A stretch of DNA of 64,000 nucleotides. Source: a virus. Location of the stretch: the IMG/VR virus record IMGVR_UViG_3300047509_000156, positions 32,001 through 96,000 of that record, one strand, 5' to 3'. Shown one piece after another: positions 30,665 through 60,851 of the stretch. The notes beneath the pieces were generated by a model. It ran no database searches. It was not told the origin of the DNA and saw nothing but the letters and a program-made list of their open reading frames with translations. The position numbers and the translations under genes are program-made. The first letter of the stretch is position 1. Each line of letters opens with the position of its first letter.

Positions 30665-30958
30665 TCACGAGACCTGCGGCAAGGGTCGGACGTGCCAGCG
30701 TCCCTTGACCTGGAAGCCCCAGAAGACGTTGGCGTCGTGCCATCCCTTCTGCCACTGCCGGTAACAGTGCCGGTCGTCGGCGTGACTGTAGGGGTTGTCC
30801 GACAGCCCCTTACCGGCGATGCGGTCGCTGGACCCGCGATTGAACGCTGTCGCCATCTGTTCGGTGAGCGTTTCCTTGTACTCCTGTTTCAATCCGCCCC
30901 CCCGGTCATCCGAGGGGGAATTCTCGTCATAGCCTGGCATCTTCTCGTGGTCGATCAT
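30665..30958 (-). CDS. Rmf/CrpP-fold-like protein
   Basis: AFNRG...G.....NPY......RQWQKGW. Confidence 0.55.
   Translation of the reverse strand: MIDHEKMPGYDENSPSDDRGGGLKQEYKETLTEQMATAFNRGSSDRIAGKGLSDNPYSHADDRHCYRQWQKGWHDANVFWGFQVKGRWHVRPLPQVS
30886..30921 (-). CRISPR. Solitary CRISPR-repeat-like unit A
   Basis: ATTCCCCCTCGGATGACCGGGGGGGCGGATTGAAAC; hairpin plus ATTGAAAC handle; same family as unit D. Confidence 0.6.
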
Positions 30959-31221
30959 TCCTCTTCCTCCACTCGCTCCACCTTGAATTCCGGTAGGCTG
31001 TCCACGTCGATCAGCCGCCGCATCGCCGCCCGCGCCTCACCAGCCGTCCACGCTTGGACGATGAAGTCGATCTCCGTTCCGGCCAGGCGCCACAGGGGAG
31101 TTGGTTTCTTGAGGTGGACGACGCGGGCACCTATTTCCTTGTTGATATTGGCAAACGCACGCCTCTTACTCTTGGCAGACTTCAGGGAGGCGATCTGTTC
31201 GCTGATGCTTACCCGGCGCAT
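30955..31221 (-). CDS. Hypothetical protein
   Basis: Coupled ORF with RBS. Confidence 0.55.
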   Translation of the reverse strand: MRRVSISEQIASLKSAKSKRRAFANINKEIGARVVHLKKPTPLWRLAGTEIDFIVQAWTAGEARAAMRRLIDVDSLPEFKVERVEEEE

Positions 31222-31829
31222 ACTTCCTCCTCCGGATACTCGTTACCCCAGCCATCGAAACCCGATCGCCTCTTACGGGAGAATAGTTCCAGTCGCGGTT
31301 CTGGGCTGCACTTCTCGACCATCTCCATGAAGGAGTCTGGTTTGACGCTGTGCGGCAGGCGTTCGGAGAGAAATAGAGTTGGTATCGCCTCCTCGACTTC
31401 CAGACGAAGTTTTCCACGGACGGCGAATAGGCAATGTTCCGTGGCACTGCGGAACCAGTACCCCGTCTTGCACGACGGCTCGAAGGAAGCCTTGTCGGCC
31501 TTTCTTACCTTGCCCCAGGTGATGATCGTCTTGGGTTTGAATCCCCACGCCCTAGCGAGGTCGTGTGCTTCCTCCATGAAGGAGTTTGTCGTCCAAAGAT
31601 AGAGGTGGGCGTCCTCCTGAACGAGAGACTGTACGCCCAGACGGATCAGATCGATCATGCTCATCGTCTCGTAGTGACTGCCAAGATCGGCCTGAATGAT
31701 CTCTGCCGCCCTCCCCTCCTGGCTGCCCCTGCCGCCATTGCCGACGACGGCGCGTGGCGAGTGATAGGGCCACGGCGGGTCAGCCACGATGCAGCGGTAG
31801 TGCTTCGGAAGATCACTCAATTGTCGCAT
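31209..31829 (-). CDS. MT-A70 family adenine methyltransferase
   Basis: IVADPPW, HLYLWTT, AWGF, TEHCLFA, HSVKP, RLELF. Confidence 0.92.
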   Translation of the reverse strand: MRQLSDLPKHYRCIVADPPWPYHSPRAVVGNGGRGSQEGRAAEIIQADLGSHYETMSMIDLIRLGVQSLVQEDAHLYLWTTNSFMEEAHDLARAWGFKPKTIITWGKVRKADKASFEPSCKTGYWFRSATEHCLFAVRGKLRLEVEEAIPTLFLSERLPHSVKPDSFMEMVEKCSPEPRLELFSRKRRSGFDGWGNEYPEEEVCAG

Positions 31830-31841
31830 TTCCGCTCCTTA

Positions 31842-32201
31842 TTAGATTTCCCAGAGAGTAACCACGATCTTGCCGCCCTTGCACACTTCCTTGCGGATGA
31901 CATGTAGATCGTCGATATGTTCATCATCCTGATAAACTCCGGCCTTTTGCAGGGCGTCCAAAGTCGATTTGGCTAAGTTATCGATATCGCGTCCTCGACG
32001 ATCAGGAGGGAACACCTCGATAAGCACGCCGAGCCTGCCGTCCATTGGCTTCAGGCGAGCGATAACGCACATGATGCCGACTGCTTCCCTGAACAGTTTA
32101 CCTTCCTCGCTCACAAGAACCTTGATCCCCTTGGGGCAGGCTACATGGCGCCAGTAGTGGTTGACGCTTGGAGCGAAAGGGAGTTCGATTGTCTGCTTCA
32201 T
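31842..32201 (-). CDS. rusA: RusA-family Holliday junction resolvase
   Basis: PSVNHYW, PPDRRGRDIDNLAKSTLDAL, YQDDEHI. Confidence 0.92.
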   Translation of the reverse strand: MKQTIELPFAPSVNHYWRHVACPKGIKVLVSEEGKLFREAVGIMCVIARLKPMDGRLGVLIEVFPPDRRGRDIDNLAKSTLDALQKAGVYQDDEHIDDLHVIRKEVCKGGKIVVTLWEI

Positions 32202-32542
32202 GTCGTCTCCTTGACCACCTCGTACTTTCTGCCGACCCTCTTGATGTACCCCGTAGCGATCAGCCCTCTGGCGCCGGCCAGACAGGCGTAGACTCGCCGC
32301 GAGCAGGCTGAATCGCTCTCGGCTCCTATGAGTCCGAAATGCGTCTGGCTTTCTTCCCAGCAGGCCAGTATTAGCGTGGTGAGCGAGAAAGGTTGCTGGA
32401 GGTTTTCTGCCACACCGAGAAGCACCTCCACGGCTGATCCGGGTATGAGGATTTTCTTCTTGATGGCGTGTTTCTCGTCGTAGACGCGGTTCCACTCAGC
32501 CTCGTCGTGTGCCGCCAGTGCAGCAGGGGTGTCGTCGTTCAT
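32198..32542 (-). CDS. Hypothetical winged-helix-like protein
   Basis: ACWEE...FGL.G...GLI..GYI. Confidence 0.55.
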   Translation of the reverse strand: MNDDTPAALAAHDEAEWNRVYDEKHAIKKKILIPGSAVEVLLGVAENLQQPFSLTTLILACWEESQTHFGLIGAESDSACSRRVYACLAGARGLIATGYIKRVGRKYEVVKETT

Positions 32543-32717
32543 TTATCTCTCCAAAGTCCCAAACGTCTCAGTTCTTCCTCGGCCTGCCGCGCCAGTTCCT
32601 CGATCCGCTCCTCGTGTCCTGGCGGATCGTGCAGGACGAGATCGCCGTGGTGGCGTCTCTGTCTCGTCTTGGTCATCGTCTCCGATGGCCGGCAGGCGTG
32701 AACGCTATTATTCTCCA

Positions 32718-33134
32718 TCAGAATCCTCCGCCCTGCGAGATGTAACCGGCGACCTTCTCGGGCAACGGTTCCGGCTTCACATCGGCCAAGTCCATGCGTC
32801 CGAGAAACTCGATGGCTAAAGCACGGACGCAAAATGAGTACACGCCCTTACACGTCTTGATCCAGGGATGTCCGCGTACCTGGCCGTCTGGTTTGCTCCA
32901 GGCTTCGAGGAACTTGCACACCAGTTTATCCAGCGGCGTGCCGTACTGGATCGCCGTCGAAAACAGGATGGCCCAGTCGTCGGCCACTAGGCGGATGTCA
33001 CCGTTGCCGACGACGAGGAACACCTCCCCCAACTTGCCGTCCTCATAGAGGCCGCAAGTCAGAAACACGTCCGTGCCTCCGATATCGACGGACCATGTGA
33101 AGGATTTGCGACGGTCGGGGAGTTTACGGTACAC
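32718..33134 (-). CDS. Stand-alone class II ribonucleotide reductase C-terminal (TSCPD-like) domain
   Basis: RKLPDRRKSFT...GLYEDGKLGEVFL...S.AIQYGTPL. Confidence 0.8.
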   Translation of the reverse strand: MYRKLPDRRKSFTWSVDIGGTDVFLTCGLYEDGKLGEVFLVVGNGDIRLVADDWAILFSTAIQYGTPLDKLVCKFLEAWSKPDGQVRGHPWIKTCKGVYSFCVRALAIEFLGRMDLADVKPEPLPEKVAGYISQGGGF

Positions 33135-33426
33135 CTTGCATCTCCTTGGATTCTCTCTGTCTTTGAATCGTCACCGCACGCCACATGGCTTCCAGAGTTT
33201 CGTGGAGATCCTTCATCTGATCGGCCTTGCCGCGAACGCCGGCACAGAGCATCTTCTTGATGGCGTGCTGCCGCGCCGGGCAGGTTATTCCGAACGCCTC
33301 CAGTACGCAGTACACGTCAACGAGGATAGGCTTGCCGTTGTCGTCTGCCGGGTGGATCAGACGGAGATACTTGGAGCCGCTGTGGCTCTGTATTGGCCTC
33401 TCGTAAATAGACGGGTCTTTTTTCAT
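33124..33426 (-). CDS. Phage hypothetical protein (DUF3310-like)
   Basis: DVYCVLEAF...QHAIKKMLCAG.RGK...DL. Confidence 0.7.
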   Translation of the reverse strand: MKKDPSIYERPIQSHSGSKYLRLIHPADDNGKPILVDVYCVLEAFGITCPARQHAIKKMLCAGVRGKADQMKDLHETLEAMWRAVTIQRQRESKEMQGVP

Positions 33427-33472
33427 GGTTGTTTCCCAGGCAGCCGGCGGTTCTCCTTGCCCACTATCTCCA

Positions 33473-33572
33473 GTTTCAATCCACAGCCAGCCCAGCGGCC
33501 GGCTGCACCGTCTCATCAGTCCGATCAGATTGGTGGTTTCAATCCACGCCTAACCCACATGGCCAGGCGCAC
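33473..33572 (-). CRISPR. CRISPR mini-array: two degenerate type I-C-like repeats and one 27-nt spacer
   Basis: GTGCGCCTGGCCATGTGGGTTAGGCGTGGATTGAAAC - CACCAATCTGATCGGACTGATGAGACG - GTGCAGCCGGCCGCTGGGCTGGCTGTGGATTGAAAC; intergenic; flanked by a 14-bp inverted repeat. Confidence 0.75.
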
Positions 33573-33597
33573 GATTCCGCCGGCTGCCTGTTGATCG

Positions 33598-34443
33598 TCA
33601 GTGGTCGCGAACCCACACTGTCTCGACCATGCGCCTCTTGGATTCTCCCGATGCGGCGTTGTTCGGCAGCGTCCATTCCTGCTGCGTTGTGTGCTTGTTC
33701 AGCATCCGGTCGTAGAGGTCGTTGCGGTATCCCGAGAGGATAAACTTCGACTTACCGCGAAGCAACTGCTCCAGAAGCCTCTCGTGCTGTTCGACCGTCA
33801 TCTCGTGCTGGTAGTCGTCCGTGCTGGCGCGGGTCTCGGGCATGTAGCTTGGATCTAGGTACAGGAGCGTGTTCTCGCCGTCCTGCTCGCGGCACACGTC
33901 GATGCCGTCGTGGTTGAGGATGACGACTCTCTTCAAACGGGCGTGGACCTCTGGAAGTCCCTCGATGCACGTCAGCCACGCGGATGCCTGCTCGTTCTGT
34001 CCACGGCGTGTCCTGTTCCGCGACAGTGGGGCGAAGTGTTTCATTCGCCCAGCGAGCGATTGGCGGCAGCAGATAAAGAAACTACAGGCGCGGAGAACAC
34101 AGGCTGCTGTTCCTTGCGTGGTGATTTCGCTGGAATCTGGAACACCTTTCCACCCGATATTCCTCAGAATTCCGGCGGAAACAGTCCACTCGAACTCGCT
34201 AAACGGTGTCGCTTCGATGACACGGAAGAACGCCTCGAACGTATGCGGGTGACGGATAACAGTCCAGAAGTTTGTCAGGTGGCGGTAGAGGTCGTTCGCA
34301 ACCTCGCTGACACCTTCCGGGTTCTTGGCGAGCAGGACAGACAATCCGCCAGCGAACGGCTCGACGTAGTGCAGGTGCGGTATCGAGTCGGTAATCTCGA
34401 CGATCCTGGCGGCAAGGTATGATTTTCCGCCATTCAGTGCCAC
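33598..34443 (-). CDS. D12-class (Dam-like) DNA adenine methyltransferase with disrupted N-terminus
   Basis: GGKSYLA, YVEPFAGG, NDL, YLDPSY, ILSGY. Confidence 0.85.
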   Translation of the reverse strand: MALNGGKSYLAARIVEITDSIPHLHYVEPFAGGLSVLLAKNPEGVSEVANDLYRHLTNFWTVIRHPHTFEAFFRVIEATPFSEFEWTVSAGILRNIGWKGVPDSSEITTQGTAACVLRACSFFICCRQSLAGRMKHFAPLSRNRTRRGQNEQASAWLTCIEGLPEVHARLKRVVILNHDGIDVCREQDGENTLLYLDPSYMPETRASTDDYQHEMTVEQHERLLEQLLRGKSKFILSGYRNDLYDRMLNKHTTQQEWTLPNNAASGESKRRMVETVWVRDH

Positions 34444-34736
34444 TTCAAACAGGACGGCACAGGCCGAAACGTCGAAGCGGCATTCCTCCTTTCACTGGTC
34501 ATCTTGTCCCTCCTTTCCCGGTACTTCTCCAGGCATGGCTTGCACACCAGTCCGTAGCGCCAGATCCACCAAGCATCATCCAGAGGCTCGATCACCTCTT
34601 CGCATGTCCGACATGGGTACGCCTTGGTGACGAGGATCTTCTGGGCGCTACGCCGCGCAGGCAGACGCTCGACGGATGCGAGTTTGCCATGTTCGTCGCG
34701 ATACTCTCTGTATTCAGGAGCCTGTTCCACACTCAT
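34434..34736 (-). CDS. Hypothetical Zn-binding protein ending in the displaced Dam N-terminus
   Basis: CRTC..CKPC; ends PSCLKWH*. Confidence 0.5.
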   Translation of the reverse strand: MSVEQAPEYREYRDEHGKLASVERLPARRSAQKILVTKAYPCRTCEEVIEPLDDAWWIWRYGLVCKPCLEKYRERRDKMTSERRNAASTFRPVPSCLKWH

Positions 34737-35205
34737 CGGAGTTCCCTCCGTCGCGCCACTCGCAGAAAAAGCGCCATAGTTTACGCTGCATCCGCTCGAT
34801 ACTGCTGTCCTCGGCGGTGAAGCAGTGCCCGCAGGGAAGCACCGCCTTGCCCTCATGGCGTTGTTCCGGTGTCGCGTGATAGATCGAGGAGAAGTTCGTT
34901 CCGTCTGGCCATCTGAATGATTCTTCCGGCGCGGGGCGGTTTTGCCGCTCGACGAGCATCTTGGCCTTCCGCGCCTCAGCACGCGCCTTGCGCTTCTCCT
35001 GCCGGCAACTGCCGCAATCCTCCTGGGCATAGGAGGCGACCGGGCGAACATGACCGCACTTGAATGCCACGTTCTCCGTCAGTTTGACGTGACACTTCGG
35101 CACCGGCAGGTCGTTGGAGATCTGCGGCTTGTCGGCCACGATGAGTCCCTTGGCCGCTTGTTTACTTCGCATTCGTTCGAGTCGATCCCCCATCATTTCC
35201 TCCAC
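34714..35205 (-). CDS. Hypothetical Zn-binding protein
   Basis: CGH...CGSC, LPCGHC. Confidence 0.6.
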   Translation of the reverse strand: MEEMMGDRLERMRSKQAAKGLIVADKPQISNDLPVPKCHVKLTENVAFKCGHVRPVASYAQEDCGSCRQEKRKARAEARKAKMLVERQNRPAPEESFRWPDGTNFSSIYHATPEQRHEGKAVLPCGHCFTAEDSSIERMQRKLWRFFCEWRDGGNSDECGTGS

Positions 35206-35343
35206 CAGAGTAGTTCGTGCCAGTCAGGAAACTGAGCGGCCTTCGTCCCCGACTTTGAAGCCTTCCAGAACCGCCTCGGCGCGCCGCCAGAGAAAGACCA
35301 CCAACCATAAGGCAATCCGTTGCAACATCGTAAACCTCCATGA

Positions 35344-35380
35344 GTTTCAATCCACAGCCAATATTGCGACCGGACGCATC
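35344..35380 (-). CRISPR. Solitary CRISPR-repeat-like unit C (degenerate)
   Basis: GATGCGTCCGGTCGCAATATTGGCTGTGGATTGAAAC; last 17 nt identical to the mini-array repeat at 33473. Confidence 0.6.
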
Positions 35381-35667
35381 GGAAAAATCGCCCGCCGCCG
35401 GGTTGGACTGCAAACGACAAAGGTCTGGCGCCTCTCCAACGAGGATCGGCACTCCCAGCGGCGGGCGAAGTCACGTCTTAGGCTTATAAGTCTTCAGAGT
35501 GCCGTACACTCCACATCACCTAGCCTTTCCTTGTTTTGTGCTCGCCGGAGCATAGAAGAGAACCCCCAACCACGAGCGTCCTTTACCACCCTCCGGCGAG
35601 CCTGGCCTCTCGGGTGGCCTCGCGATGACCCGCGCCGGCAACGAGCCGGATAGTCTCCCGAGAAGGA

Positions 35668-35967
35668 TCACGCTGTCCGCATCGCTTCCGGTTTGCAGAC
35701 GATAAGTTGCAGGACGGGCTGGATCGTAGCCACTTCTCTGTCCTCGAAGGAGATGACGCCCAGACGCCGTAATTTCCTGACGATGTGGTGGACGTGATTG
35801 CTCGCCTTGAATCCGCATCTCTTGGCGACCGTGCGAATGGAGATCGGTTTGCGCTCCCGGTAGAGGTCGTAGATGGCGGCGATCACCTTGACGTGACCTG
35901 GAGGCAGAACGTCGGAGCGGATGGATCGCGGCATGGTGTGGTAGATACTCGGTACTCTGAGAGACAT
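35668..35967 (-). CDS. LexA-like winged-HTH DNA-binding protein
   Basis: PISIRTVAKRCGFKASNHVHHIVRKLRRLGVI. Confidence 0.7.
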   Translation of the reverse strand: MSLRVPSIYHTMPRSIRSDVLPPGHVKVIAAIYDLYRERKPISIRTVAKRCGFKASNHVHHIVRKLRRLGVISFEDREVATIQPVLQLIVCKPEAMRTA

Positions 35968-36004
35968 GGTCCGTTCTCCGTTGTTTATGTCTTCCTCTGC
36001 ACTA

Positions 36005-36031
36005 TATACGCTCCTGTCTCTTGCGTGTGAC
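36005..36031 (-). promoter_or_regulatory. GTCACA-N15-CGTATA motif copy 4
   Basis: Exact motif, intergenic. Confidence 0.8.
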
Positions 36032-36039
36032 AGGGAGAG

Positions 36040-41046: not shown

Positions 41047-42306
41047 CGAATTGTCTCCAGGAAACCCCTAGCTTCAGCTATGGGGAGGAATGGAGACGCC
41101 TTCGCCCCCATTCCCGACCTACCAACCTTGTTTCGGACGTTTTTCTTCCGTACAATAGGAGCATGAAACTGACCATTCAACTCCAGTTGCTCCCGACACC
41201 CGAGCAAGCGGCCCTCTTGCTCGACACGATGGAGCGCGTCAACGAAGCCGCCACCTTCGCCGCCAGGCAGGGATTCGAGGCTGGAGTCTTTTCCCAACCC
41301 TCGATTCACAAACTGGCGTATCGCTCCATCAGGGATCGCTTCGGCCTGTCCGCCCAATTGGCCGTCCGCGCTATCGGCAAGGCGGTTGAGACGTTCCATC
41401 GCGACAAGACCATTTGCCCCGTCTTCAGGCCGCATGGGGCCATCACCTACGATCAGCGGAACCTGTCGTTCAAGGGACTCGACAAGGTGAGCCTGGCAAC
41501 GCTCACCGGCCGCGAGGTTGTCGCGCTGGTCTACGGCGAGTATCAGGCGGAGCGCTTTGACCGGATCAAGGGCCAGTGTGATCTCGTCTACCGTGACGGC
41601 AAGTTTTTCCTGATGGCCACGGTGGAGTTGCCCGAGCCGCCGCCCGGCGAAGTCAAGGAGTTCCTGGGGATCGACCTTGGCATCGTCAACATCGCCACCA
41701 CGAGCGAGGGCGAGACGTTCAGCGGCGCGAACATCGACCGCAACCGCAAGCGCCGGGCCACCGCCCGCAAGCAGTATCAGCGAAAGGGGACGAAGAGCGC
41801 GAAGCGCAGATTGAAACGACTCGCGAAGTGCCAGGGGCGCTTTCAGAGGCATACCAACCACGAGATCAGTAAGCGACTCGTGGCAACGGCCAAGGCACTC
41901 GGTCTGGGGATCGCGATGGAGGACCTCACCCACATTCGCGGCAGAATCGAGCCAACAGTTTCGCGCCGGTTTCGACGAAGATTCGGCAACTGGAGTTTCT
42001 CTCAACTCCGGGAATTTGTGAAGTATAAGGCATGTCTGGCAGGCGTACCGTTCGTGCTGGTGGACCCGCGCAACACCAGTCGGACTTGCTCGCAATGCGG
42101 ATACTGCGACAAGGCCAACCGCAAGACTCAGGCTGAGTTCGTCTGCCTGCATTGCTCGTACTCCGCGAATGCCGACCGAAACGCCGCCGAGAACATCTCT
42201 CGGCTTGGGCAAACCAGTAGACTTGCCCCAAAAGTAGCAGTCCTTGCGTCTTCTCTCAACGAAGGCTAGCTGCAAAGCCCCCGGCTTTAGCCGTGGGGAT
42301 GTTTAC
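41047..42306 (+). mobile_element. IS200/IS605-family (IS1341-like, tnpB-only) element 2
   Basis: TCAT|...GAAA-CCCCTAGCTTCAGCTATGGGG left end; AAAG-CCCCCGGCTTTAGCCGTGGGG...TTAC right end, hairpin identical to element 1. Confidence 0.85.
41163..42269 (+). CDS. tnpB: RNA-guided endonuclease TnpB
   Basis: GIDLG / AMEDL / NADRNAA; CSQC..CLHC. Confidence 0.92.
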   Translation: MKLTIQLQLLPTPEQAALLLDTMERVNEAATFAARQGFEAGVFSQPSIHKLAYRSIRDRFGLSAQLAVRAIGKAVETFHRDKTICPVFRPHGAITYDQRNLSFKGLDKVSLATLTGREVVALVYGEYQAERFDRIKGQCDLVYRDGKFFLMATVELPEPPPGEVKEFLGIDLGIVNIATTSEGETFSGANIDRNRKRRATARKQYQRKGTKSAKRRLKRLAKCQGRFQRHTNHEISKRLVATAKALGLGIAMEDLTHIRGRIEPTVSRRFRRRFGNWSFSQLREFVKYKACLAGVPFVLVDPRNTSRTCSQCGYCDKANRKTQAEFVCLHCSYSANADRNAAENISRLGQTSRLAPKVAVLASSLNEG

Positions 42307-42840: not shown

Positions 42841-43482
42841 TTATCCCCCATACGTCTTGTTCGTCTCGTTAAAGACCCAACCCTGGTTGGCGGCGTACTC
42901 GTTGATCATCTTCCAGACGATCTTCTTATCTTCCTTGGCCATGCCGGATAGCTGCTCCAGCTTGTCGTTGAAGTCGTCGCGCTTCGGTCCCAGGTGCAGA
43001 TACTGCTCCCAATCGCGTACAGTTTGGCTGCGCGGGCAGGCCCAGTCCGGCAATGCTGGTTTTTTGACGAACTGGCGTTTCTGCGTGTCGTAGTCGCACC
43101 ATTGCTTGGGCAGGTCGTACAAGTACCTGCCGATTCCCCACTTAACAGCCGTTCGCTTGATCGCGTCGGATACCGCTGCCTTCATCTTGTCGCCGCTATC
43201 TGGCTGTTCGCTTGGTCCGCCAACGTCCTGCTTGGGAATCCACTCGTCGCCGATCCGCAATGACAGGATACACTGTACGTTGCCATCGGAAAGAGCGGCG
43301 TACTCGTCCTTCCAGCCGTCGATCCCCATAACTTCGTCAAGTCTCTCCATGACGCATCTCGCGTCGATGTACGCGATGGCGAGGGCGCGGTTGCCGCTGA
43401 CAGCCTGCGGCTTGAACGACACCTCGTCGATGGCGAACGGTTCTCGCAATTGACGAGCGATTAAGTCCGTTGGCTTGCTCAT
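42841..43482 (-). CDS. Rad52/Rad22-family single-strand annealing protein (Sak-like)
   Basis: AYIDARCVMERLDEV.G...W, KQDVG, K.AVSDAIKR.AV.WGIGRYLY. Confidence 0.92.
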   Translation of the reverse strand: MSKPTDLIARQLREPFAIDEVSFKPQAVSGNRALAIAYIDARCVMERLDEVMGIDGWKDEYAALSDGNVQCILSLRIGDEWIPKQDVGGPSEQPDSGDKMKAAVSDAIKRTAVKWGIGRYLYDLPKQWCDYDTQKRQFVKKPALPDWACPRSQTVRDWEQYLHLGPKRDDFNDKLEQLSGMAKEDKKIVWKMINEYAANQGWVFNETNKTYGG

Positions 43483-52223: not shown

Positions 52224-52856
52224 TCATCCTCCCACTTGTGGCGGTTTGATCGGCGGCAAGCCAACGAGTTCTCTGCCCCAGGCGACACAGGCGACCGATA
52301 GCGCCCAGAAGGCAGCTTCCTCGCTGTCATGGCGCGGCTCTTTGTGGGCGCCGCGTTCGTTGAAACGAAGTCCAGGCAGTTTCATGCCGATATAGAGCGG
52401 TAAGATATCGCCAGTCCAGTAATGCCTTTGATTACCGCCGATCAGCCATCGCCAGACTTCTTTGCCTCTGGTTCTCCTGTTCTGAAGCCTCATCGGCTTC
52501 TTATCAGTCAGCCTAACTTCAGTGATCGGCTGCTCAGAGAACAGCGTTTCGGCGTGTTTGAGGAAGTCTTCACAACTCATCTCGACGCCAACCACAAAAC
52601 CTCGATGGACGGTCCCCGAGGCGTTGAGGAACCTTCTCTTCTCCGGCGAGCGCCAAGACTCTGCTATACCGATAGCGCCGTCGAGTGTGCAGTGCAGTTG
52701 CCCGTATGGTTCCAGGACTCTCTCGCGGATGTACGCTGCACGCTCGATCTCGCCGGCCTCGTCGATGGCGTCGGCGTAGACGAGACGAACGTCGTCCCTG
52801 TCTGGTTCTTCGAGGATGGCCCACAGGAGGCTATCGATGGTGGGCTGGGTGATCAT
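52224..52856 (-). CDS. TIGR02996 domain-like protein
   Basis: LLWAILEEPDRDDVRLVYADAIDEAGEIERAAYIR; RGFV; paralogous to 11227..12003. Confidence 0.85.
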   Translation of the reverse strand: MITQPTIDSLLWAILEEPDRDDVRLVYADAIDEAGEIERAAYIRERVLEPYGQLHCTLDGAIGIAESWRSPEKRRFLNASGTVHRGFVVGVEMSCEDFLKHAETLFSEQPITEVRLTDKKPMRLQNRRTRGKEVWRWLIGGNQRHYWTGDILPLYIGMKLPGLRFNERGAHKEPRHDSEEAAFWALSVACVAWGRELVGLPPIKPPQVGG

Positions 52857-55149: not shown

Positions 55150-55165
55150 TGCTGTTTCTCCTTGG

Positions 55166-55396: not shown

Positions 55397-55433
55397 GGGG
55401 TACTCCAGGGGGGGGGGGATGGGTGATGGTTTG

Positions 55434-56252: not shown

Positions 56253-56303
56253 AGCGGGTTCTCCTGGGAAAAACGGTTGCCTTGTTCTCTCTCGACGTTA
56301 TAC

Positions 56304-56387
56304 TATACGCAGTTGTCTCCTTCTTGTGACAGAGAGATCGGTAGAATCCAGAGAATATCGGTCACAGTCCGGATGAATCGGCGTATA
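56304..56387. promoter_or_regulatory. Divergent pair of GTCACA-N15-CGTATA motifs (56304-56330 minus; 56361-56387 plus)
   Basis: Two exact copies at the strand switch. Confidence 0.85.
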
Positions 56388-56399
56388 TCAAGTGTCGCC

Positions 56400-56436
56400 A
56401 TTTTCCCCCGGCCAAAATCCGGGGGCGGATTGAAAC
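56400..56436 (+). CRISPR. Solitary CRISPR-repeat-like unit D
   Basis: ATTTTCCCCCGGCCAAAATCCGGGGGCGGATTGAAAC, perfect 7-bp stem, 37 nt, in 5' UTR. Confidence 0.7.
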
Positions 56437-56458
56437 AAGAGAGAAAGGACGGTGAAAC

Positions 56459-57065
56459 GTGGAGACGGCAGAACCCAAGGAATCCTGGCGGATTGTCTGG
56501 CGAGCGGCGGCGGATTTGATCTCTCTGGAGGAACTGCAATTTATTCAGGTGACATTGGCGAGCGATGATCCGAGATGGGTCCAGGGCGCCACGACCAGTC
56601 CTCCCCCCTTTGCAGGCTGTGGCAGATTGGCCCGTGGAAGCCGCCTGTCTGTTCGGCCTATGTGGAGTGTTCAGCGGCGGCGGTTGGGGAGAGGCAATCG
56701 TCTCGGACACTGAGGATCGGTTTGCGAGACTCTGTTTCGACGTGGACCAGAAACTAGGCGAGCCTGCCGGCGTGAGATTTTTGCTCAACTGGCATGATGA
56801 GGCGCCCCGTGAGGAGGTCCGCCAGTCCTTACTCACAGAGATTACGGACGCCATCTCCTCCCGACTGTCCTCCCTCCGCGACCGTCTCGCCAATCTGGGC
56901 GGGCAGCGTATCCTCGCCGAGGTGGAGTTGCAGGACTTCCTCGCGGAAGGTGACACGGGACTCTCGCCGGACCCGTCCCGTGGCAAGGCGGCACAGGAAC
57001 GCCTCGACACCATCAACGCCGAGTACGCACAGGTGCGCGAGGAATACGCTAGGGCTACGGCGTGA
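56459..57065 (+). pseudogene. Gemmataceae-type conserved protein split by a +1 frameshift
   Basis: ESWRIVWR...QGATTSPPP | LQAVADWPVEAAC...LGEPA..RFLLNW. Confidence 0.6.
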
Positions 57066-57071
57066 ATTGTT

Positions 57072-57098
57072 GTCACAACTACGAGAATATGCCGTATA
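57072..57098 (+). promoter_or_regulatory. GTCACA-N15-CGTATA motif
   Basis: Exact motif. Confidence 0.8.
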
Positions 57099-57133
57099 TC
57101 AGGGTGTCGCCCGGAAGCGTAAGGAGAAGAACC

Positions 57134-57406
57134 GTGAGCAAGAAGACAGCGAAAGGTGTTCGCTCAAAGGTAACTCTCTACATCGACAGCGGCGCCGTGC
57201 AGGTCTTTGCTGGACAGTTGCATCCCGCCGTGTTCACCGAGGAGGAAGCCTGCCGCATTCTCCTAGCGCATAAGGATCTCCTTGCCGCGTGTCGCAGCGC
57301 CCTGACACTCGTTGCCACAATGCAGAGTATGCCGCCGTCTGTGGATTGCATTGAGAGCGTTCTCGAGCAACTCGAATCCGCCATCGCCAAGGGAGAATCG
57401 CCGTGA
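57134..57406 (+). CDS. Hypothetical protein
   Basis: AAGGAG RBS; DLLAAC...AIAK. Confidence 0.6.
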   Translation: MSKKTAKGVRSKVTLYIDSGAVQVFAGQLHPAVFTEEEACRILLAHKDLLAACRSALTLVATMQSMPPSVDCIESVLEQLESAIAKGESP

Positions 57407-57627
57407 TCCAGACTGTGAATAAACTTGTCGGCAAGATCGCCGCCCGTGCCGCCGAGTTGGCCAACATGAAAATCAACCGGCTCCGTCTGGAGGCACCAGC
57501 CTACGAGGAGAGCGTCGCTGCTCATTTGAGGATCGCCAAGTTGGATTTCCCTGACCGAGGAAGACTCATCGAGGCGATTCTTCTGGAGGAGTTCAGCGAG
57601 GAGTTTGATCGGAGTATTGATCCATGA
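57403..57627 (+). CDS. Hypothetical protein
   Basis: Coupled ORF. Confidence 0.55.
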   Translation: MIQTVNKLVGKIAARAAELANMKINRLRLEAPAYEESVAAHLRIAKLDFPDRGRLIEAILLEEFSEEFDRSIDP

Positions 57628-57935
57628 CACCCACCACCCCCATCCGTGGCCTCCACGATGTCACGCGAATCGCCAGTGGCTACGGCATCCCCTGGCAGGT
57701 CGCCCTGACGCCCGAATGTTTCGAGAGGTGTATTCGCGTCGGCGTCTTCTGGAGCAAAGAAGAGGACCGCCTCGCCGACGTGATTTACGCCCTTGCCGTC
57801 GCCCTGAGAAGCTGCCGCTGGTGCTGGCGTATCTACGTACCCTCGGGGACACGAGTTCCCGACGTGGTTAAACTGCGGGCACGGCGGGAGGAGAATAACG
57901 AGGAAGTACGAATTATCGTGGACCTGGAGGAGTGA
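57624..57935 (+). CDS. Hypothetical protein (DUF6573-like)
   Basis: DVT..A..YGI...VALT....ERCI...RL.DV. Confidence 0.55.
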   Translation: MTPTTPIRGLHDVTRIASGYGIPWQVALTPECFERCIRVGVFWSKEEDRLADVIYALAVALRSCRWCWRIYVPSGTRVPDVVKLRARREENNEEVRIIVDLEE

Positions 57936-58133
57936 TGAACAAATACGAACTGGCAGCCAAGATCGGCGATCTGGCTGAAGAGGCTGGAGAATCCTACGCC
58001 GCCGTTGTCCTGCTCGCCCTGGCCGGAGCGGTAATGATTGGACTGGAGAGAGAGTTGGCCGATGTTTGTGTTCTCGTCTCGCAGAGACAGAAGGATTTCT
58101 GCGACAGAAGTCTCAAGGCAAAGGATAACTAGC

Positions 58134-58622
58134 ATGGGAGACCGTAGCCGCTTCCGACTGTTCGCTCAACTGATCGCCGAGAGGTTCCCTGACCGCAAGG
58201 CGCGAATCGCCGACGTGGCCTGTGGCAAGGGGCAACTGCACAGTGAGTTGCACCTCCTGGGTTATCGCAACGTCGTCTCCTGGGACAAGCGGAAGAGGAA
58301 CCTGCGGCGACTTTCAGTGGGATTCCGCTACGAGTGGTTCGACTACCGAAACGCTCCCAGGGGTTACGATCTGGTGGTTGGGATGCACCCCGACGAGGGC
58401 ACGGACCACATAATCCTGTACGCCGCCAAGCACAAGGTTCCTTTCCTCGTCTGCCCCTGCTGTGTGCTTCCAAGTGCTGCGGAGTACGGCGGGCAGCGTG
58501 CCTGCTACACGGACTGGATGCGTCATCTCGTCGGTTTGGCACGTTCCCGAAGGATGACGACCGACACCGTATCTTTGCCGATGGATGGACGAAAACAGGT
58601 AATCGTGGGAGGCTGTCGATGA
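58134..58622 (+). CDS. Class I SAM-dependent methyltransferase
   Basis: IADVACGKG, VVGMHPDEGT, VCPCC. Confidence 0.8.
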   Translation: MGDRSRFRLFAQLIAERFPDRKARIADVACGKGQLHSELHLLGYRNVVSWDKRKRNLRRLSVGFRYEWFDYRNAPRGYDLVVGMHPDEGTDHIILYAAKHKVPFLVCPCCVLPSAAEYGGQRACYTDWMRHLVGLARSRRMTTDTVSLPMDGRKQVIVGGCR

Positions 58623-58954
58623 GCGTCATGAACCTGCGCTGGCGTTCCGATTCCAAGGTGGAACTGACCCTGTGCTGGCCGGACGGTCGCAGTTTCGTTA
58701 CCGTTGCCACGAGAAACGGTGATCACATTGACATCGACACGCCTTATTTCCCCGACAAAGGCGACATCGATTCAGTCGAGGCGATACGCGACGTGACGCA
58801 GTGGTTGGCGCTGGGAGCCTGCTGTGCCCAGATGCTTGTCGGGTTCGACCACGCCACACTGGAAGATCTCGTCGCCGGCAGGAAGATGCTCCAGATTCCC
58901 AACCCGATCATCTCCATCACAATCGGGGTGGTGGACGCTGTGGAGGATAAGTAA
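58619..58954 (+). CDS. Hypothetical protein
   Basis: Coupled ORF. Confidence 0.55.
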   Translation: MSVMNLRWRSDSKVELTLCWPDGRSFVTVATRNGDHIDIDTPYFPDKGDIDSVEAIRDVTQWLALGACCAQMLVGFDHATLEDLVAGRKMLQIPNPIISITIGVVDAVEDK

Positions 58955-59454
58955 TGTCAGAACGATTCATGACGCCCGAGAACGGGCTTTGCTCCTTTTT
59001 GCCGAAACGAAACGATTTGAGGTATTTAAGAGTAAAAAAGGAGCAAAGCCCCGAGAACGCCGACGCCTTCGTGGATTTTCCGCCCGCCCGCAAGGAATGC
59101 CCGAATCATCTTCCCGATGGGAGGCTTTGTGCCCGCTGCCACGGTTTCGGCGGCTGGAACCTGGAATTGAACGCCTACCCGAAAACGAAGGAGCAAGAAG
59201 ATGCGATCCGCGACAACCTTCGCAGGTGTCCGGTGACGAACCTGCCCGGTCCCGACATGACGAACGCCGAGTTCCGGCATCACTATGTCCACTTCCGCGC
59301 CAGTTGCTCCAACTGCAACGGCTGGGGTTGGGTCAAGAAGGAACAGGGCGATCATGTCCACGAGTGGGTGGAGAGCCGCAATGTGGGGAAATGCCTGAAC
59401 GAGTACACCTGTAAGACGTGCGGTGAAAGGCAGACGGTGGATTCGTCGGACTAG
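58954..59454 (+). CDS. Zn-finger protein
   Basis: CARCHGFGGW, CSNCNGWGWV, CKTCG..VDSSD. Confidence 0.7.
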   Translation: MSERFMTPENGLCSFLPKRNDLRYLRVKKEQSPENADAFVDFPPARKECPNHLPDGRLCARCHGFGGWNLELNAYPKTKEQEDAIRDNLRRCPVTNLPGPDMTNAEFRHHYVHFRASCSNCNGWGWVKKEQGDHVHEWVESRNVGKCLNEYTCKTCGERQTVDSSD

Positions 59455-59837
59455 CGGATGGTATTGCGCCCGGCCTGCTGGTCGGGTGTGGATTGAAACG
59501 CCTGAAGCGCCATGATCTCCTGTTGCTTCCTCTCGATCTCCCTGGCCTTCTCCTCGCTCTTGCGGAGTTCCGCTGCCTCGATGGCGGCGGCCAGGTCATC
59601 GGCACAGTGCCCGATCAGTGCCTTGGCCTGGTCGATCGACAGGGTGATCTCTTCGTGGGTCGCCGTGGGTGTCGGTCCGGAGTGGTGCATAAGAGGAGGA
59701 AGGGGCCGGCGGATCTTGATGGACGTACCGGAGGCGAGGATCAAGATGGCGTCGGGAGGGAGGGCTTTCTTGGCCATGTGGGACAACCTTACGGGTGGGG
59801 GCGGAATCGGCTCTGGGAGGCGGTAAACGTGGTTCAT
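59451..59837 (-). CDS. Hypothetical protein
   Basis: Coupled ORF. Confidence 0.55.
   Translation of the reverse strand: MNHVYRLPEPIPPPPVRLSHMAKKALPPDAILILASGTSIKIRRPLPPLMHHSGPTPTATHEEITLSIDQAKALIGHCADDLAAAIEAAELRKSEEKAREIERKQQEIMALQAFQSTPDQQAGRNTIR
59463..59499 (+). CRISPR. Solitary CRISPR-repeat-like unit E (type I-C-like)
   Basis: ATTGCGCCCGGCCTGCTGGTCGGGTGTGGATTGAAAC, 10-bp stem with G-U pairs, 8 nt after a stop codon. Confidence 0.75.
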
Positions 59838-60034
59838 TCCTTCGGCTTCATGATGTCGGCGTACATGGACTTGGCGTCCTCGTTGAGGGAGTCGGCCAGT
59901 GACTTACCGCCCTCGGCGCGACGCTGCTCGGAGTATCCAATTGCAACTGCTTGTGCTTCTGGTTTTCCCGCCCGGCGTTCCGTGGCGATGTTCTCGGATC
60001 GTGCTTCGTCCGAAGGGGAATGGTTAAGCGGCAT
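59834..60034 (-). CDS. Small phage protein (MPL...SENI...GKP..QAVAI type)
   Basis: Motif I recognise from phage head-gene neighbourhoods. Confidence 0.6.
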   Translation of the reverse strand: MPLNHSPSDEARSENIATERRAGKPEAQAVAIGYSEQRRAEGGKSLADSLNEDAKSMYADIMKPKE

Positions 60035-60383
60035 GGCTGGCTCCCTCTTTCTCTGGGGCGACGACGGCGAGCAGGTGGCTCTCCGGCATGATAACCAATG
60101 TTTTGCCGTTATGCTCAACCTCGGAGCCCTGGTAGCGCGGGTAAAGGACGGTGTCGCCGACCTTAACCGTCAGAGGGTAGCGGCCTTCCGTCGCGTATCG
60201 CGTCTGGGTCTTGGCGGAGAGCATCTCGGGCACTACGAGTCCTGGCCCAACAGCAACCACGGTGCCGCGCTGCGGCTTATCCTTGGCCGTATCAGGGATG
60301 TACAGACCGCTCTTGGTCCGGTCGGGTGCCTCCAGAGGATCGATGACAACGCGGTCGTTCAGAGGAGAGATCGGGTAACTCAT
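60024..60383 (-). CDS. groES: Co-chaperonin GroES
   Basis: PLNDRVV, TKSGLYIPDTAKDKPQRGTVVAVGPG, VKVGD.VLY..Y.G.E. Confidence 0.95.
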   Translation of the reverse strand: MSYPISPLNDRVVIDPLEAPDRTKSGLYIPDTAKDKPQRGTVVAVGPGLVVPEMLSAKTQTRYATEGRYPLTVKVGDTVLYPRYQGSEVEHNGKTLVIMPESHLLAVVAPEKEGASHAA

Positions 60384-60404
60384 GGAATTACTCCTGGTTT
60401 CGTG

Positions 60405-60431
60405 GTCACAGGTTACTACGAGTAGCGTATA
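60405..60431 (+). promoter_or_regulatory. GTCACA-N15-CGTATA motif
   Basis: Exact motif at strand switch. Confidence 0.8.
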
Positions 60432-60465
60432 TGACTCGTCGCCCGTCAGCAACACGGAGAGAAAG

Positions 60466-60851
60466 ATGAATCACATTGAAGCCTTGCGGAATCTCCAGCA
60501 GGAGACTGGGCACCCCGGTCACGAACTGGGTACGTTCCTGCTCCAGAACAGCAACTCGCTGCCTTACCTCGCGGAGCAGTTGAAGTTTCAATCCCCTCCT
60601 TCGCGGGGCACTTCTGCGGACTCAAGGAGAAGAACGATCTGGACGCACACCGCTGGCGCGATTACGAATTGGTGGAAGTCGGATGGATTAACGGCGTGAA
60701 TCCGAAGACGGCCCGCTCGCTTGTTGAGGCCGGCGTTCTGGTCGAGGACATGCCTTTCGATATGGACGCGAACACCAACTCCCATGTTCGCCTACCACGG
60801 CTGGAAGAGGTGTATCCGAGAATCGGCAAGCCGCTGATCGATGTTCTTTGA
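60466..60851 (+). pseudogene. Hypothetical gene apparently frameshifted at a CRISPR-repeat-like insert
   Basis: Two ORFs join in frame if 41 nt containing unit F are removed. Confidence 0.4.
60585..60621 (-). CRISPR. Solitary CRISPR-repeat-like unit F (type III/I-D-like)
   Basis: GTCCGCAGAAGTGCCCCGCGAAGGAGGGGATTGAAAC, 37 nt, GT start, CCCC/GGGG stem next to handle. Confidence 0.7.

What the first reader, a model, noticed from the sequence alone, without database searches (positions are those of the whole stretch)
30886..60621. Seven dispersed CRISPR-repeat mimics from three repeat families in a cas-less phage region: candidate multi-system RNA anti-CRISPR arsenal
Seen: the 10-mer GGATTGAAAC occurs seven times (30886-, 33473-, 33536-, 35344-, 56400+, 59463+, 60585-); well under one chance hit is expected in 64 kb on both strands. 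Each hit ends a 36-37-nt unit with a hairpin (weak in unit C). There are three families: GC-stem..GTGGATTGAAAC (four copies), TTCCCCC..GGGGGCGGATTGAAAC (two copies) and GTCCGCAGAAGTG-CCCC..GGGGATTGAAAC (one copy). Most lie on the locally transcribed strand. Known: ATTGAAAC is the 8-nt crRNA 5' handle released by Cas5d/Cas6 in type I and III systems, and phage solitary repeat units can act as RNA anti-CRISPRs (Racrs). Inference: this phage decoys several different host CRISPR-Cas subtypes at once, or uses host Cas5d/Cas6 to cut its own mRNAs. I know of no such repertoire described for a planctomycete phage.
Basis: partly seen in the sequence, partly recalled or inferred. Interest (0 to 1): 0.92.

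Follow-up and report, generated by a model that had tools for sequence, protein, structure and literature searches.

The report
Scattered CRISPR-repeat copies in a phage
A complete 106-kb phage without cas genes carries seven scattered copies of CRISPR repeats, six of them of the type I-C kind used by Gemmata-like planctomycetes; they most likely act as RNA decoys against host CRISPR immunity, a trick already described in other phages.

Summary
GGATTGAAAC occurs seven times (0.11 expected) and nowhere else in the 106,481-bp DTR phage. Each copy ends a 37-nt unit.

All seven units align end to end with Rfam CRISPR-repeat models, though below the gathering scores. Six match CRISPR-DR9 and one matches CRISPR-DR10.

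Real arrays of this kind lie beside Cas5c-Cas8c-Cas7c-Cas4-Cas1-Cas2 operons, including in Gemmataceae genomes. U5 shares both stem arms and the tail with an abundant metagenomic I-C repeat.

- Four units form 9-10-bp hairpins with nine G.U pairs and no A.C, so the structure exists only in RNA of the named strand.
- Six of seven units are co-oriented with local genes, and U5 starts 14 nt after a phage promoter motif.
- U4 has lost its hairpin.
- U7 is antisense to the local transcript and lies in a stretch that interrupts a conserved small gene.
- U3-26 nt-U2 is a degenerate mini-array with no target found.

The phage has no Cas5d, Cas6 or I-C cas homologue.

Best reading (0.55): solitary repeat units acting as RNA anti-CRISPRs (Racr), mostly against one subtype rather than many. 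This is a new member of a known kind. Function, host and expression are untested.

The parts
30886..30922 (-). U1. Type I-C-like repeat unit with a 9-bp stem and the tail CGGATTGAAAC. It lies between the stop of gene 30955-31221 and the RMF-like domain of ORF 30665-30958, so it is either in a leader or in the N-terminal extension of that ORF.
   Evidence: DR9, 23.7 bits; -18.5 kcal/mol, z -2.7; the RMF domain starts at residue 33 of the 97-aa ORF
33473..33509 (-). U2. Type I-C-like repeat unit and second repeat of the mini-array. It has a 10-bp stem with 2 G.U pairs.
   Evidence: DR9, 32.3 bits, E 1.5e-4; -20.7 kcal/mol, z -4.7
33510..33535 (-). The 26-nt 'spacer' between U3 and U2. It is shorter than the 33-39 nt seen in real arrays of this repeat kind.
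   Evidence: No target was found in IMG/VR by exact match, in the phage itself, or in 151 Gemmataceae genomes at up to 3 mismatches.
33536..33572 (-). U3. Type I-C-like repeat unit and first repeat of the mini-array. It has a 10-bp stem with 3 G.U pairs.
   Evidence: DR9, 26.9 bits; -17.0 kcal/mol, z -3.6
33437..33590 (-). A perfect 14-bp inverted repeat (arms 33437-33450 and 33577-33590) encloses U3-spacer-U2 in the Dam / DUF3310-like intergenic region. The predicted long-range stem could mark a processing site or the ends of an inserted element.
   Evidence: I4, 100% complementary; 176-nt fold -85.4 kcal/mol, z -5.96; the arms occur nowhere else in the genome
35344..35380 (-). U4. A degenerate I-C-like unit that keeps the tail GTGGATTGAAAC but has lost the hairpin. 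It follows a terminator-like 15-bp inverted repeat (35388-35402 / 35454-35468) plus a T-run.
   Evidence: DR9, 22.2 bits, with non-standard pairs flagged; z +0.24; I5
56361..56386 (+). Phage promoter motif GTCACA-N15-CGTAT, 14 nt upstream of U5.
   Evidence: 13 copies in the window at up to 1 mismatch, 0.56 expected
56400..56436 (+). U5. Type I-C-like unit at the predicted 5' end of the rightward transcript, followed 22 nt later by a GTG start with AAGGA before it (ORF 56459-56713). Both stem arms and the tail match Gemmataceae-type and metagenomic I-C repeats.
   Evidence: DR9, 21.0 bits; 30/37 to the G089 repeat; metagenomic I-C repeat differs only at the 5' end and in the loop
59461..59499 (+). 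U6. The best-preserved I-C-like unit, starting 6 nt after the stop of gene 58954-59454 at a convergent gene junction. The tail of the opposite-strand ORF 59451-59837 reads through its complement.
   Evidence: DR9, 34.0 bits, E 4.6e-5; -19.5 kcal/mol, z -4.0; 30/37 to the Thiobacillus/Chromatiaceae I-C repeats
60585..60621 (-). U7. A CRISPR-DR10-like unit with a CCCC/GGGG stem and the tail ATTGAAAC. It is antisense to the transcript expected from the promoter motif at 60405-60430(+). It lies inside ORF 60466-60699, in a stretch absent from homologues of the downstream small gene.
   Evidence: (DR10, 32.4 bits, E 1.2e-4)

Best explanation
**What the units are.** They are solitary CRISPR repeat units carried by a phage that has no cas genes. 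Six copy the 37-nt form of the type I-C repeat: a hairpin followed by an 11-nt tail (U/C)GGAUUGAAAC. One copies a different, Cas6-type repeat.

**Proposed mechanism (inferred).**
1. The units are transcribed as parts of phage mRNAs: U5 in a leader, U6 in a 3' end, and U1-U4 in intergenic stretches of the leftward operon.
2. Host Cas5c recognises them as it recognises pre-crRNA. [quoted passage not shown]
3. Cas7c, and perhaps Cas8c, then load onto RNA that carries no useful guide. This draws type I-C proteins away from crRNAs that target the phage. That is the Racr mechanism.
4. Several copies in different transcripts raise the dose.
5. The diverged stems may reflect neutral drift under a structural constraint, or different repeat variants among host strains.

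**Units that are probably decayed or inactive.** U4 has no hairpin. U7 is on the wrong strand and inside an ORF. The U3-26 nt-U2 pair behaves more like two decoys than like a guide.

**Shown versus inferred.** Shown: likeness in sequence and fold, strand, position, absence of cas genes, and the existence of matching I-C arrays in Gemmataceae. Inferred: transcription, Cas5c binding and cleavage, inhibition, and the host.
For: **Repeat likeness.**
- Seven exact 10-mers against 0.11 expected.
- Full-length matches to Rfam CRISPR-DR9 and CRISPR-DR10.
- Arrays with near-identical 37-nt repeats sit next to type I-C cas genes in Imhoffiella and Thiohalocapsa.
- The same holds in five Gemmataceae-family genomes with Cas5d-family genes just upstream of Cas8c, and in metagenomic contigs.
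- U5 shares both arms and the tail with the metagenomic I-C repeat.
- Units are 26-30/37 identical to the nearest repeats held.

**RNA-level constraint.**
- 9 G.U pairs and no A.C among 39 stem pairs of U1, U2, U3 and U6. The sense strand folds 3-10 kcal/mol better than the antisense strand.
- Across 19 distinct solitary units, 87% of cells pair and 7 of 10 pairs change on both sides. The covariation score is 0.471 against 0.186 shuffled and at most 0.127 slid.
- The invariant part is the tail, which is what Cas5c reads (PMC8524198).

**Context.**
- 6 of 7 units are co-oriented with local genes, and U2-U5 are clearly intergenic. About 12% of the genome is non-coding by my crude calls.
- U5 starts 14 nt after a phage promoter motif. 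SRUs are reported to sit often just after promoters.
- U6 starts 6 nt after a stop codon. RacrIC1 lies 11 nt after acrIC5.
- U1-U4 lie among Dam and MT-A70 methyltransferase genes.
- There is no Cas5d, Cas6 or I-C homologue in the phage.
- Other IMG/VR contigs carry 2-3 dispersed units of the same kind.
- Tested SRUs of types I-F, I-C, I-E and V-A inhibit CRISPR.
- Link to Gemmata-like hosts: two phage proteins carry TIGR02996 above its cut-off.
Against: - No array with a repeat identical to any unit was found; the best is 30/37.
- Four units carry GTGG tails. No GTGG-type 37-nt array was found in the 251 Planctomycetota genomes sampled. The 151 Gemmataceae-family genomes were searched only for the shorter GGATTGAAAC ending, and none of the matches listed there ends in GTGGATTGAAAC (207 matches were not listed).
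- None of about 1,150 spacers from the arrays held matches the phage. The host, and any CRISPR pressure on this phage, are therefore unproven.
- All Rfam scores are below the gathering thresholds.
- Only U5 has a recognisable promoter directly upstream.
- No known acr gene was recognised next to any unit.
- U4 does not fold. U7 is antisense and inside an ORF. U1 may be coding.
- Nothing about RNA, processing or inhibition could be measured.
Confidence: 0.55

Rival explanations
1. The units are processing or regulatory sites, not decoys. The phage places I-C repeats in leaders and between cistrons so that host Cas5c cuts its polycistronic mRNAs, or Cas5c/Cas7c binding masks the ribosome-binding site just downstream. 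Expression of the following genes would then depend on whether the host has an active I-C system.
For: - Units sit 15-46 nt before start codons (U2, U4, U5), and U5 forms the 5' end of an mRNA.
- In other viral contigs start codons follow the unit by 0-11 nt in about 4 of 8 distinct cases.
- Cleavage would leave the Cas5c-bound 11-nt handle directly in front of the ribosome-binding site (PMC8524198).
Against: - No precedent was found in the papers read.
- U6 has no co-oriented downstream gene.
- The distances to start codons are biased by my crude ORF calls, and the TGA inside the tail closes one reading frame.
- The apparent support from metagenomic 'solitary' units upstream of housekeeping genes collapsed. 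Those units are a CRISPR leader plus a single repeat, that is, collapsed arrays.
Confidence: 0.15
2. The units are relics. Repeats were picked up by recombination with, or insertion from, host CRISPR loci. They are decaying and now have little or no function.
For: - U4 has lost its stem.
- U7 lies antisense in a stretch of about 119 nt that separates the two parts of a small gene. Homologues P0002-P0006 of that gene have a conserved N-terminus that is missing here.
- The opposite-strand ORFs at U6 and U7 both run through the complement of the unit.
- The mini-array is bounded by a perfect 14-bp inverted repeat, as an inserted element would be.
- No close relative with syntenic units was found.
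Against: - The 10-nt tail is identical in all seven units although the stems differ at many positions.
- Stems keep pairing through G.U pairs and two-sided changes, on the transcribed strand only.
- The units are enriched in non-coding DNA and co-oriented with genes.
Confidence: 0.15
3. The units work as guides. U3-26 nt-U2, and possibly other units together with their downstream sequence, are processed into crRNA-like RNAs. These would load host Cascade to attack a competing phage or to repress a host or phage promoter, as viral mini-arrays and crRNA-like regulators do.
For: - The repeat-spacer-repeat layout has both hairpins intact.
- The layout is embedded in a strongly folding 154-nt module.
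- Viral mini-arrays are a known class (named in PMC10651486).
Against: - The spacer is 26 nt, against 33-39 nt in real arrays of this repeat kind.
- The two repeats differ from each other at many positions.
- No match to the spacer was found in IMG/VR (exact), in the phage itself (no better than shuffles), or in 151 Gemmataceae genomes at up to 3 mismatches.
Confidence: 0.07
4. The units have nothing to do with CRISPR. They would be a phage-specific hairpin-plus-tail signal, such as a terminator or the binding site of a phage RNA-binding protein, that only happens to look like a repeat.
For: - All Rfam scores are below the gathering thresholds.
- Units are placed at gene boundaries.
Against: - All seven align end to end with CRISPR repeat models of exactly the same length.
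- The tail equals the invariant tail of four repeat families in Gemmataceae arrays.
- The stem arms of U5 and U1 match real I-C repeats.
- No T-run follows the hairpins.
Confidence: 0.05

Closest known systems
RNA anti-CRISPRs (Racr), i.e. viral solitary repeat units; RacrIC1 in particular (Camara-Wilpert et al. 2023, PMC10651486)
   Same: - Single CRISPR-repeat copies on a cas-less mobile element.
- Repeat-like sequence and hairpin, mostly intergenic, one directly after a promoter.
- One unit (U6) starts 6 nt after a gene, as racrIC1 lies 11 nt after acrIC5.
- Type I-C repeat kind ending in GGATTGAAAC. About 390 entries with that motif, counting both strands, are listed in the paper's SRU table.
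   Different: - There are seven units in one genome, six of them diverged versions of one subtype with different stems.
- Two units are only 26 nt apart, so that paper's SRUFinder rules, which set aside repeats within 100 bp of each other, would exclude them as solitary.
- No acr homologue was recognised nearby.
- None of the seven sequences is in the part of the supplement that is held (the file is cut).
- The probable host phylum, Planctomycetota, is not named in that supplement.
- Activity is untested.
Type I-C CRISPR repeats processed by Cas5c/Cas5d (PMC8524198)
   Same: - A hairpin followed by an 11-nt single-stranded tail ending in GGAUUGAAAC.
- The loop and the 5' flank are free to vary, and the tail is conserved.
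   Different: - These are the 37-nt form with a 9-10-bp stem, not the 32-nt form with a 7-bp stem studied biochemically.
- The first tail base is U in four units and C in two.
- The units are not in an array and not next to cas genes.
Virus-borne CRISPR arrays and mini-arrays without cas genes (for example Nostoc cyanophage N-1, PMC4916379)
   Same: - A phage carries host-like repeats ending in GGATTGAAAC without cas genes.
- U3-spacer-U2 has the repeat-spacer-repeat form.
   Different: - Here the repeats are dispersed and unlike each other.
- The single 'spacer' is short (26 nt) and has no target in any collection searched.
Host crRNA-like regulators (CreA of CreTA, crlRNAs; bioRxiv 10.1101/2024.01.05.574328 and 10.1101/2024.12.27.630466, abstracts only)
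   Same: Stand-alone repeat-like RNAs that load Cas proteins for a purpose other than cleaving invaders.
   Different: - Those are host-encoded and carry a partly matching pseudo-spacer aimed at a promoter.
- No such target was found here.

Membership tests
Solitary repeat unit / Racr candidate | Sequence and secondary structure similar to a genuine CRISPR repeat | tested here: met
   - Full-length Rfam DR9/DR10 alignments.
- 26-30/37 identity to repeats of real arrays.
- U5 shares arms and tail with a metagenomic I-C repeat.
- Hairpins in U1, U2, U3, U5 and U6. U4 fails on structure.
Solitary repeat unit / Racr candidate | Solitary: no other repeat within about 100 bp and no cas genes on the element | tested here: met
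   - U1, U4, U5, U6 and U7 stand alone.
- No Cas5d, Cas6 or I-C homologue in the phage.
- Exception: U2 and U3 are 26 nt apart. Under SRUFinder's rules repeats within 100 bp of each other are not kept as solitary units.
Solitary repeat unit / Racr candidate | Intergenic position, transcribed, often right after a promoter | tested here: inconclusive
   - U2-U5 are intergenic and co-oriented with genes.
- U5 starts 14 nt after a phage promoter motif.
- U1 and U6 are borderline. U7 is inside an ORF and antisense.
Solitary repeat unit / Racr candidate | The host carries a CRISPR-Cas system of the matching subtype | tested here: inconclusive
   - The host is unknown.
- Gemmataceae-family genomes have I-C operons with GCGG-type repeats like U1 and U5, and the phage carries TIGR02996 domains.
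- There are no spacer hits.
- No GTGG-type array was found in the 251 planctomycete genomes sampled.
Solitary repeat unit / Racr candidate | Binds Cas proteins and inhibits interference | not testable with these tools
   This needs biochemistry and infection assays.
Type I-C repeat (Cas5c substrate) | A hairpin with an 11-nt 3' tail of the type NGGAUUGAAAC, and the same repeat kind found next to I-C cas operons | tested here: met
   - Folds.
- I-C operons next to arrays of this repeat kind.
- Tail length and recognition from PMC8524198.
Type I-C repeat (Cas5c substrate) | [quoted passage not shown] | not testable with these tools
   No experiment was possible.
Rfam CRISPR-DR9 (RF01322) / CRISPR-DR10 (RF01323) | Score at or above the curated gathering threshold | tested here: not met
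   - DR9: 21.0-34.0 bits against a threshold of 45.
- DR10: 32.4 bits against a threshold of 39.
- The alignments are full length, but the units are more diverged than the seed members.
CRISPR (mini-)array | Near-identical repeats separated by a spacer of normal length that matches a target | tested here: not met
   - U3 and U2 differ at many positions.
- The spacer is 26 nt, against 33-39 nt in real arrays.
- No target was found.

The most novel reading that the evidence does not exclude
The I-C repeat copies are not mere decoys but built-in Cas sensors and switches. Cas5c would cut phage leaders and intercistronic sites, and Cas7c would then polymerise from the retained 11-nt handle over the adjacent ribosome-binding sites. 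Each phage mRNA would soak up many Cas7 subunits, and expression of the downstream genes would become conditional on host type I-C activity. This may be a habit shared by a group of planctomycete phages that each carry two to seven such units.
Probability: 0.15. Interest if true: 0.8.

Novelty: new member of a known kind. Interest (0 to 1): 0.5.

Why it matters
- If the units work as Racrs, this phage would show that RNA anti-CRISPRs can be used in multiple diverged copies spread over early and middle transcripts. Only the Cas5c-read tail is held constant. That pattern points to which nucleotides matter for decoy function in type I-C.
- It would extend Racr candidates to phages of Planctomycetota, for which hardly any phage-host biology is known.
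- It gives concrete RNAs to test against Gemmataceae type I-C systems.
- The practical value is modest. The principle is already published, and hundreds of viral solitary repeats with the same tail are already catalogued.

Tried and rejected
**Relatives of the phage.**
- A Dam-based search gave only distant contigs (at most 45% identity) without units.
- Searches with the gene before U6 and with the small gene after U7 found nothing.

**Target of the mini-array spacer.** None was found in IMG/VR, in the phage itself or in 151 Gemmataceae genomes.

**Spacers against the phage.** 607 + 539 spacers from the arrays held gave only short chance matches. One search likewise gave nothing for the array of planctomycete genome G006.

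**Host arrays of the GTGG kind.** Not found in the 251 Planctomycetota genomes sampled.

**Wasted scan.** One viral scan used a DR10 pattern with one N too many. It was repeated correctly.

**Idea dropped: solitary I-C repeats are common leaders of housekeeping genes in host chromosomes.**
- One search showed 30 of 35 units intergenic and 22 of 25 co-oriented. mnmA and an arginyl-transferase gene lie just downstream in some cases.
- Many of these 'solitary' hits carry the CRISPR leader itself or part of it. They are arrays collapsed to one repeat.
- The statistics should therefore not be used.

**No anti-CRISPR family recognised near the units.** Pfam and PHROGs gave nothing.

**Supplement check.** The seven unit sequences are not in the held part of the Racr paper's SRU table, which is cut.

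Full report
**Observation**

Shuffles give a mean of 0.11, and none of 100 reaches seven. The window is bases 32001-96000 of a complete 106,481-bp virus record with direct terminal repeats, and the rest of the genome holds no further copy.

Read on its own strand, each copy ends a 37-nt unit. I call these:

| Unit | Coordinates | Strand |
|---|---|---|
| U1 | 30886-30922 | - |
| U2 | 33473-33509 | - |
| U3 | 33536-33572 | - |
| U4 | 35344-35380 | - |
| U5 | 56400-36 | + |
| U6 | 59461-99 | + |
| U7 | 60585-60621 | - |

**Are they CRISPR-repeat-like?**

Yes. No Rfam family reaches its gathering score. With permissive thresholds, however, all seven units align over positions 1-37 of 37-nt CRISPR repeat models.
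- Six match CRISPR-DR9 with 34.0 to 21.0 bits (E 4.6e-5 to 0.34 per 4.6 kb).
- U7 matches CRISPR-DR10 with 32.4 bits (E 1.2e-4).
- A whole-genome search with DR9 finds these units and nothing else of note.

U1, U2, U3 and U6 fold into 9-10-bp stems with 4-5-nt loops and a free 10-11-nt tail. U5 has a 7-bp stem and U7 a 4-bp CCCC/GGGG stem. U4 does not fold better than shuffles.

**Which CRISPR systems use such repeats?**

- A scan of one genome per species, using a pattern that fits U2 and U6, found 21 loci. Most are arrays with 37-nt repeats and a period of about 72 nt, in Thiobacillus, Chromatiaceae, Elusimicrobia and others.
- In Imhoffiella and Thiohalocapsa these arrays follow Cas8c, Cas7c, Cas4 and Cas1c genes.
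- In 151 genomes of the Gemmataceae family, 19 have arrays whose repeats end in GGATTGAAAC. The commonest repeat kind there, GTTTCCCC..GGGGCGGATTGAAAC, is the kind that U1 and U5 copy.
- In five of those genomes the array follows Cas8c-Cas7c-Cas4-Cas1c, with Cas2 and a Cas5d-family gene just upstream of Cas8c.
- A metagenome scan found about 25 arrays with the repeat GTTTCCCCCGGCCTCACCGCCGGGGGCGGATTGAAAC, again beside I-C genes. U5 has the same 5' arm, 3' arm and tail, and differs only at the first bases and in the loop.

Only U7 is different. Its nearest Gemmataceae array (26/37) lies beside cas1, a CRISPR-associated primase-polymerase and a TIGR02221 gene. From general knowledge that is a type III-like neighbourhood, but I did not establish the subtype.

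[quoted passage not shown] It reads mainly the bases just after the cut and the tail, not the loop or the 5' flank (PMC8524198). That is the conservation pattern seen here: an invariant tail with variable stems and loops.

**Evidence for constraint at the RNA level**

- In U1, U2, U3 and U6, 9 of 39 stem pairs are G.U and none is A.C. The sense strand therefore folds 3-10 kcal/mol better than its complement.
- I built a covariance model from the six I-C-like units. It finds 22 units (19 distinct) in the window, in other viral contigs and in two planctomycete genomes.
- On that alignment 87% of cells pair and 7 of 10 pairs change on both sides. The covariation score is 0.471, against 0.186 for shuffles and at most 0.127 for slid partners.
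- The alignment is fitted to the model, so this leans towards the structure.

**Context in the phage**

By my crude gene calls, about 88% of the genome is coding.

- **U2, U3, U4, U5.** These lie in clear non-coding gaps.
- **U1-U4.** They lie on the minus strand inside the long leftward operon, among a Dam-type and an MT-A70 methyltransferase gene. An RMF-like small gene follows U1.
- **U1.** It lies either in a leader or in the N-terminal extension of that RMF-like ORF.
- **U3 and U2.** They are 26 nt apart and are enclosed by a perfect 14-bp inverted repeat. The 176-nt stretch folds with z -5.96.
- **U4.** It follows a terminator-like hairpin with a T-run.
- **U5.** It starts 14 nt after one of 13 copies of the phage promoter motif GTCACA-N15-CGTAT. 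A ribosome-binding site and a GTG start follow it 22 nt later.
- **U6.** It starts 6 nt after the stop of a plus-strand gene at a convergent junction. The opposite ORF reads on through its complement.
- **U7.** It is antisense to the transcript expected from the promoter motif at 60405-60430(+) and lies inside ORF 60466-60699. No minus-strand promoter was seen upstream of it. Homologues of the small gene just downstream (P0002-P0006, 52-78% identical) share a 22-residue N-terminus that our copy lacks. In its place stand U7 and about 80 nt more. U7 thus seems to have arrived with an insertion that broke a gene.

The phage has no Cas5d or Cas6 match and no homologue of Cas8c, Cas7c, Cas4 or Cas1c. 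It does encode a TnpB/Cas12f-like protein, which is unrelated to these repeats.

**Host**

The host is unknown.
- Two phage proteins carry the TIGR02996 domain above its cut-off. From my own knowledge, this is a Gemmata family.
- The GCGG repeat kind is the one found in Gemmataceae arrays.
- None of about 1,150 spacers from the arrays I held matches the phage.
- No array has a repeat identical to a unit; the best is 30/37.
- Arrays with GTGG tails and 37-nt repeats were not found in the 251 Planctomycetota genomes sampled. Two solitary GTGG units do exist in planctomycete chromosomes, in ordinary gene contexts.

**Other phages**

- Eight stretches of IMG/VR contigs carry GCGG-type units outside arrays. 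By the DR9 model, records G161, G162, G164 and G165 hold two to three dispersed units each, although three of the four are only 17-28% complete. They are at most distantly related to this phage.
- DR10-like solitary units also occur in viral contigs.
- The published SRU table lists about 390 entries with this tail, counting both strands, some of them two per contig.

**A lead that failed**

- Many metagenomic single hits looked like solitary repeats placed 0-30 nt before co-oriented genes, among them mnmA.
- The 85-90 nt upstream of these repeats is the CRISPR leader itself, or part of it. They are arrays reduced to one repeat in bacterial chromosomes.
- That set therefore says nothing about phage units.

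**Interpretation**

The closest known thing is the solitary repeat unit acting as an RNA anti-CRISPR. Such units mimic host repeats, often sit just after promoters or next to acr genes, are bound and processed by the host's repeat-binding Cas protein, and divert Cas subunits into useless complexes. RacrIC1, 11 nt after acrIC5, works against type I-C (PMC10651486).

The present units fit this kind in sequence, fold, strand and position, and in the lack of cas genes. I put 0.55 on that reading. It applies chiefly to U1, U2, U3, U5 and U6. U4 and U7 are probably decayed or inactive.

Rival readings:

| Reading | Confidence |
|---|---|
| Cas5c-dependent mRNA processing or control | 0.15 |
| Decaying relics of insertions from CRISPR loci | 0.15 |
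| Guide function of the mini-array (no target found) | 0.07 |
| A signal unrelated to CRISPR | 0.05 |

The 'multi-system arsenal' claim is overstated: six units address one subtype, and the seventh is on the wrong strand. The 8-nt handle is wrong for type I-C.

**Novelty**

This is a new member of a known kind. It is notable for the number of units (seven in 30 kb), for the divergence among copies with an invariant Cas5c-read tail, and for the probable planctomycete host.

Nothing about expression, processing or inhibition could be tested.

Noticed in passing
window 41163-42269 (+): A TnpB/Cas12f-like gene (OrfB_IS605 plus the Cas12f1-like TNB domain) sits on the opposite strand inside the leftward replication/recombination operon. 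The phage therefore has no CRISPR cas genes but does carry an RNA-guided-nuclease relative. No omega-RNA or transposon ends were looked for.
   Followed up: no
window 33437-33450 and 33577-33590: A perfect 14-bp inverted repeat brackets the two-repeat mini-array, and its arms occur nowhere else in the genome. It could be an RNase III-type processing stem or the ends of a small inserted element.
   Followed up: partly
window 60466-60851 (+): A small conserved gene seems to be interrupted. Homologues (64-91 aa) have a shared 22-residue N-terminus. Here that place is taken by the complement of U7 plus about 80 nt, and the two halves are in different frames.
   Followed up: partly
window 13243-63443, 13 sites: The phage-specific promoter-like motif GTCACA-N15-CGTAT occurs 13 times at up to 1 mismatch (0.56 expected). 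Divergent pairs lie at 56305-56330(-) / 56361-56386(+).
   Followed up: partly
window 31209-31829 (-), 33598-34443 (-), 30665-30958 (-), 60024-60383 (-), 42841-43482 (-): The genes found are an MT-A70 methyltransferase, a Dam-type (D12) methyltransferase, an RMF-like small protein, a GroES (Cpn10) and a Rad52/22-family annealing protein. The two methyltransferases flank U1-U3, which may mark a counter-defence neighbourhood.
   Followed up: no
window 11854-11973 (-) and 52719-52835 (-): Two phage proteins carry the TIGR02996 repeat-companion domain at 45 bits each (cut-off 29). From my own knowledge this domain is a Gemmata paralogous family. It is the main non-CRISPR hint to the host.
   Followed up: partly
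loci L115, L121, L134, L135, L157 (leader + one repeat); L124, L145, L146, L163 (before mnmA): Metagenomic bacterial contigs hold type I-C CRISPR loci reduced to the leader, or part of it, plus a single repeat. In four contigs the repeat lies directly upstream of mnmA. These mimic 'solitary repeats' in pattern searches.
   Followed up: yes
loci L147, L157, L132, L159, L160 (just after the repeat): In several metagenomic loci the 9-nt GATTGAAAC of the repeat tail is duplicated in tandem one to three times immediately after the repeat.
   Followed up: no
L036:6863-6897 and L037:816-852: Solitary hairpin units with GTGGATTGAAAC tails lie in two planctomycete chromosomes, next to ordinary genes (TatD, DUF1549/DUF1553 and others). 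No array of that repeat kind was found in the phylum sample.
   Followed up: partly
window 30814-30830 and 31012-31028: A 17-nt, 88% complementary inverted repeat spans U1. Both arms lie in predicted coding sequence, so this may be chance.
   Followed up: no
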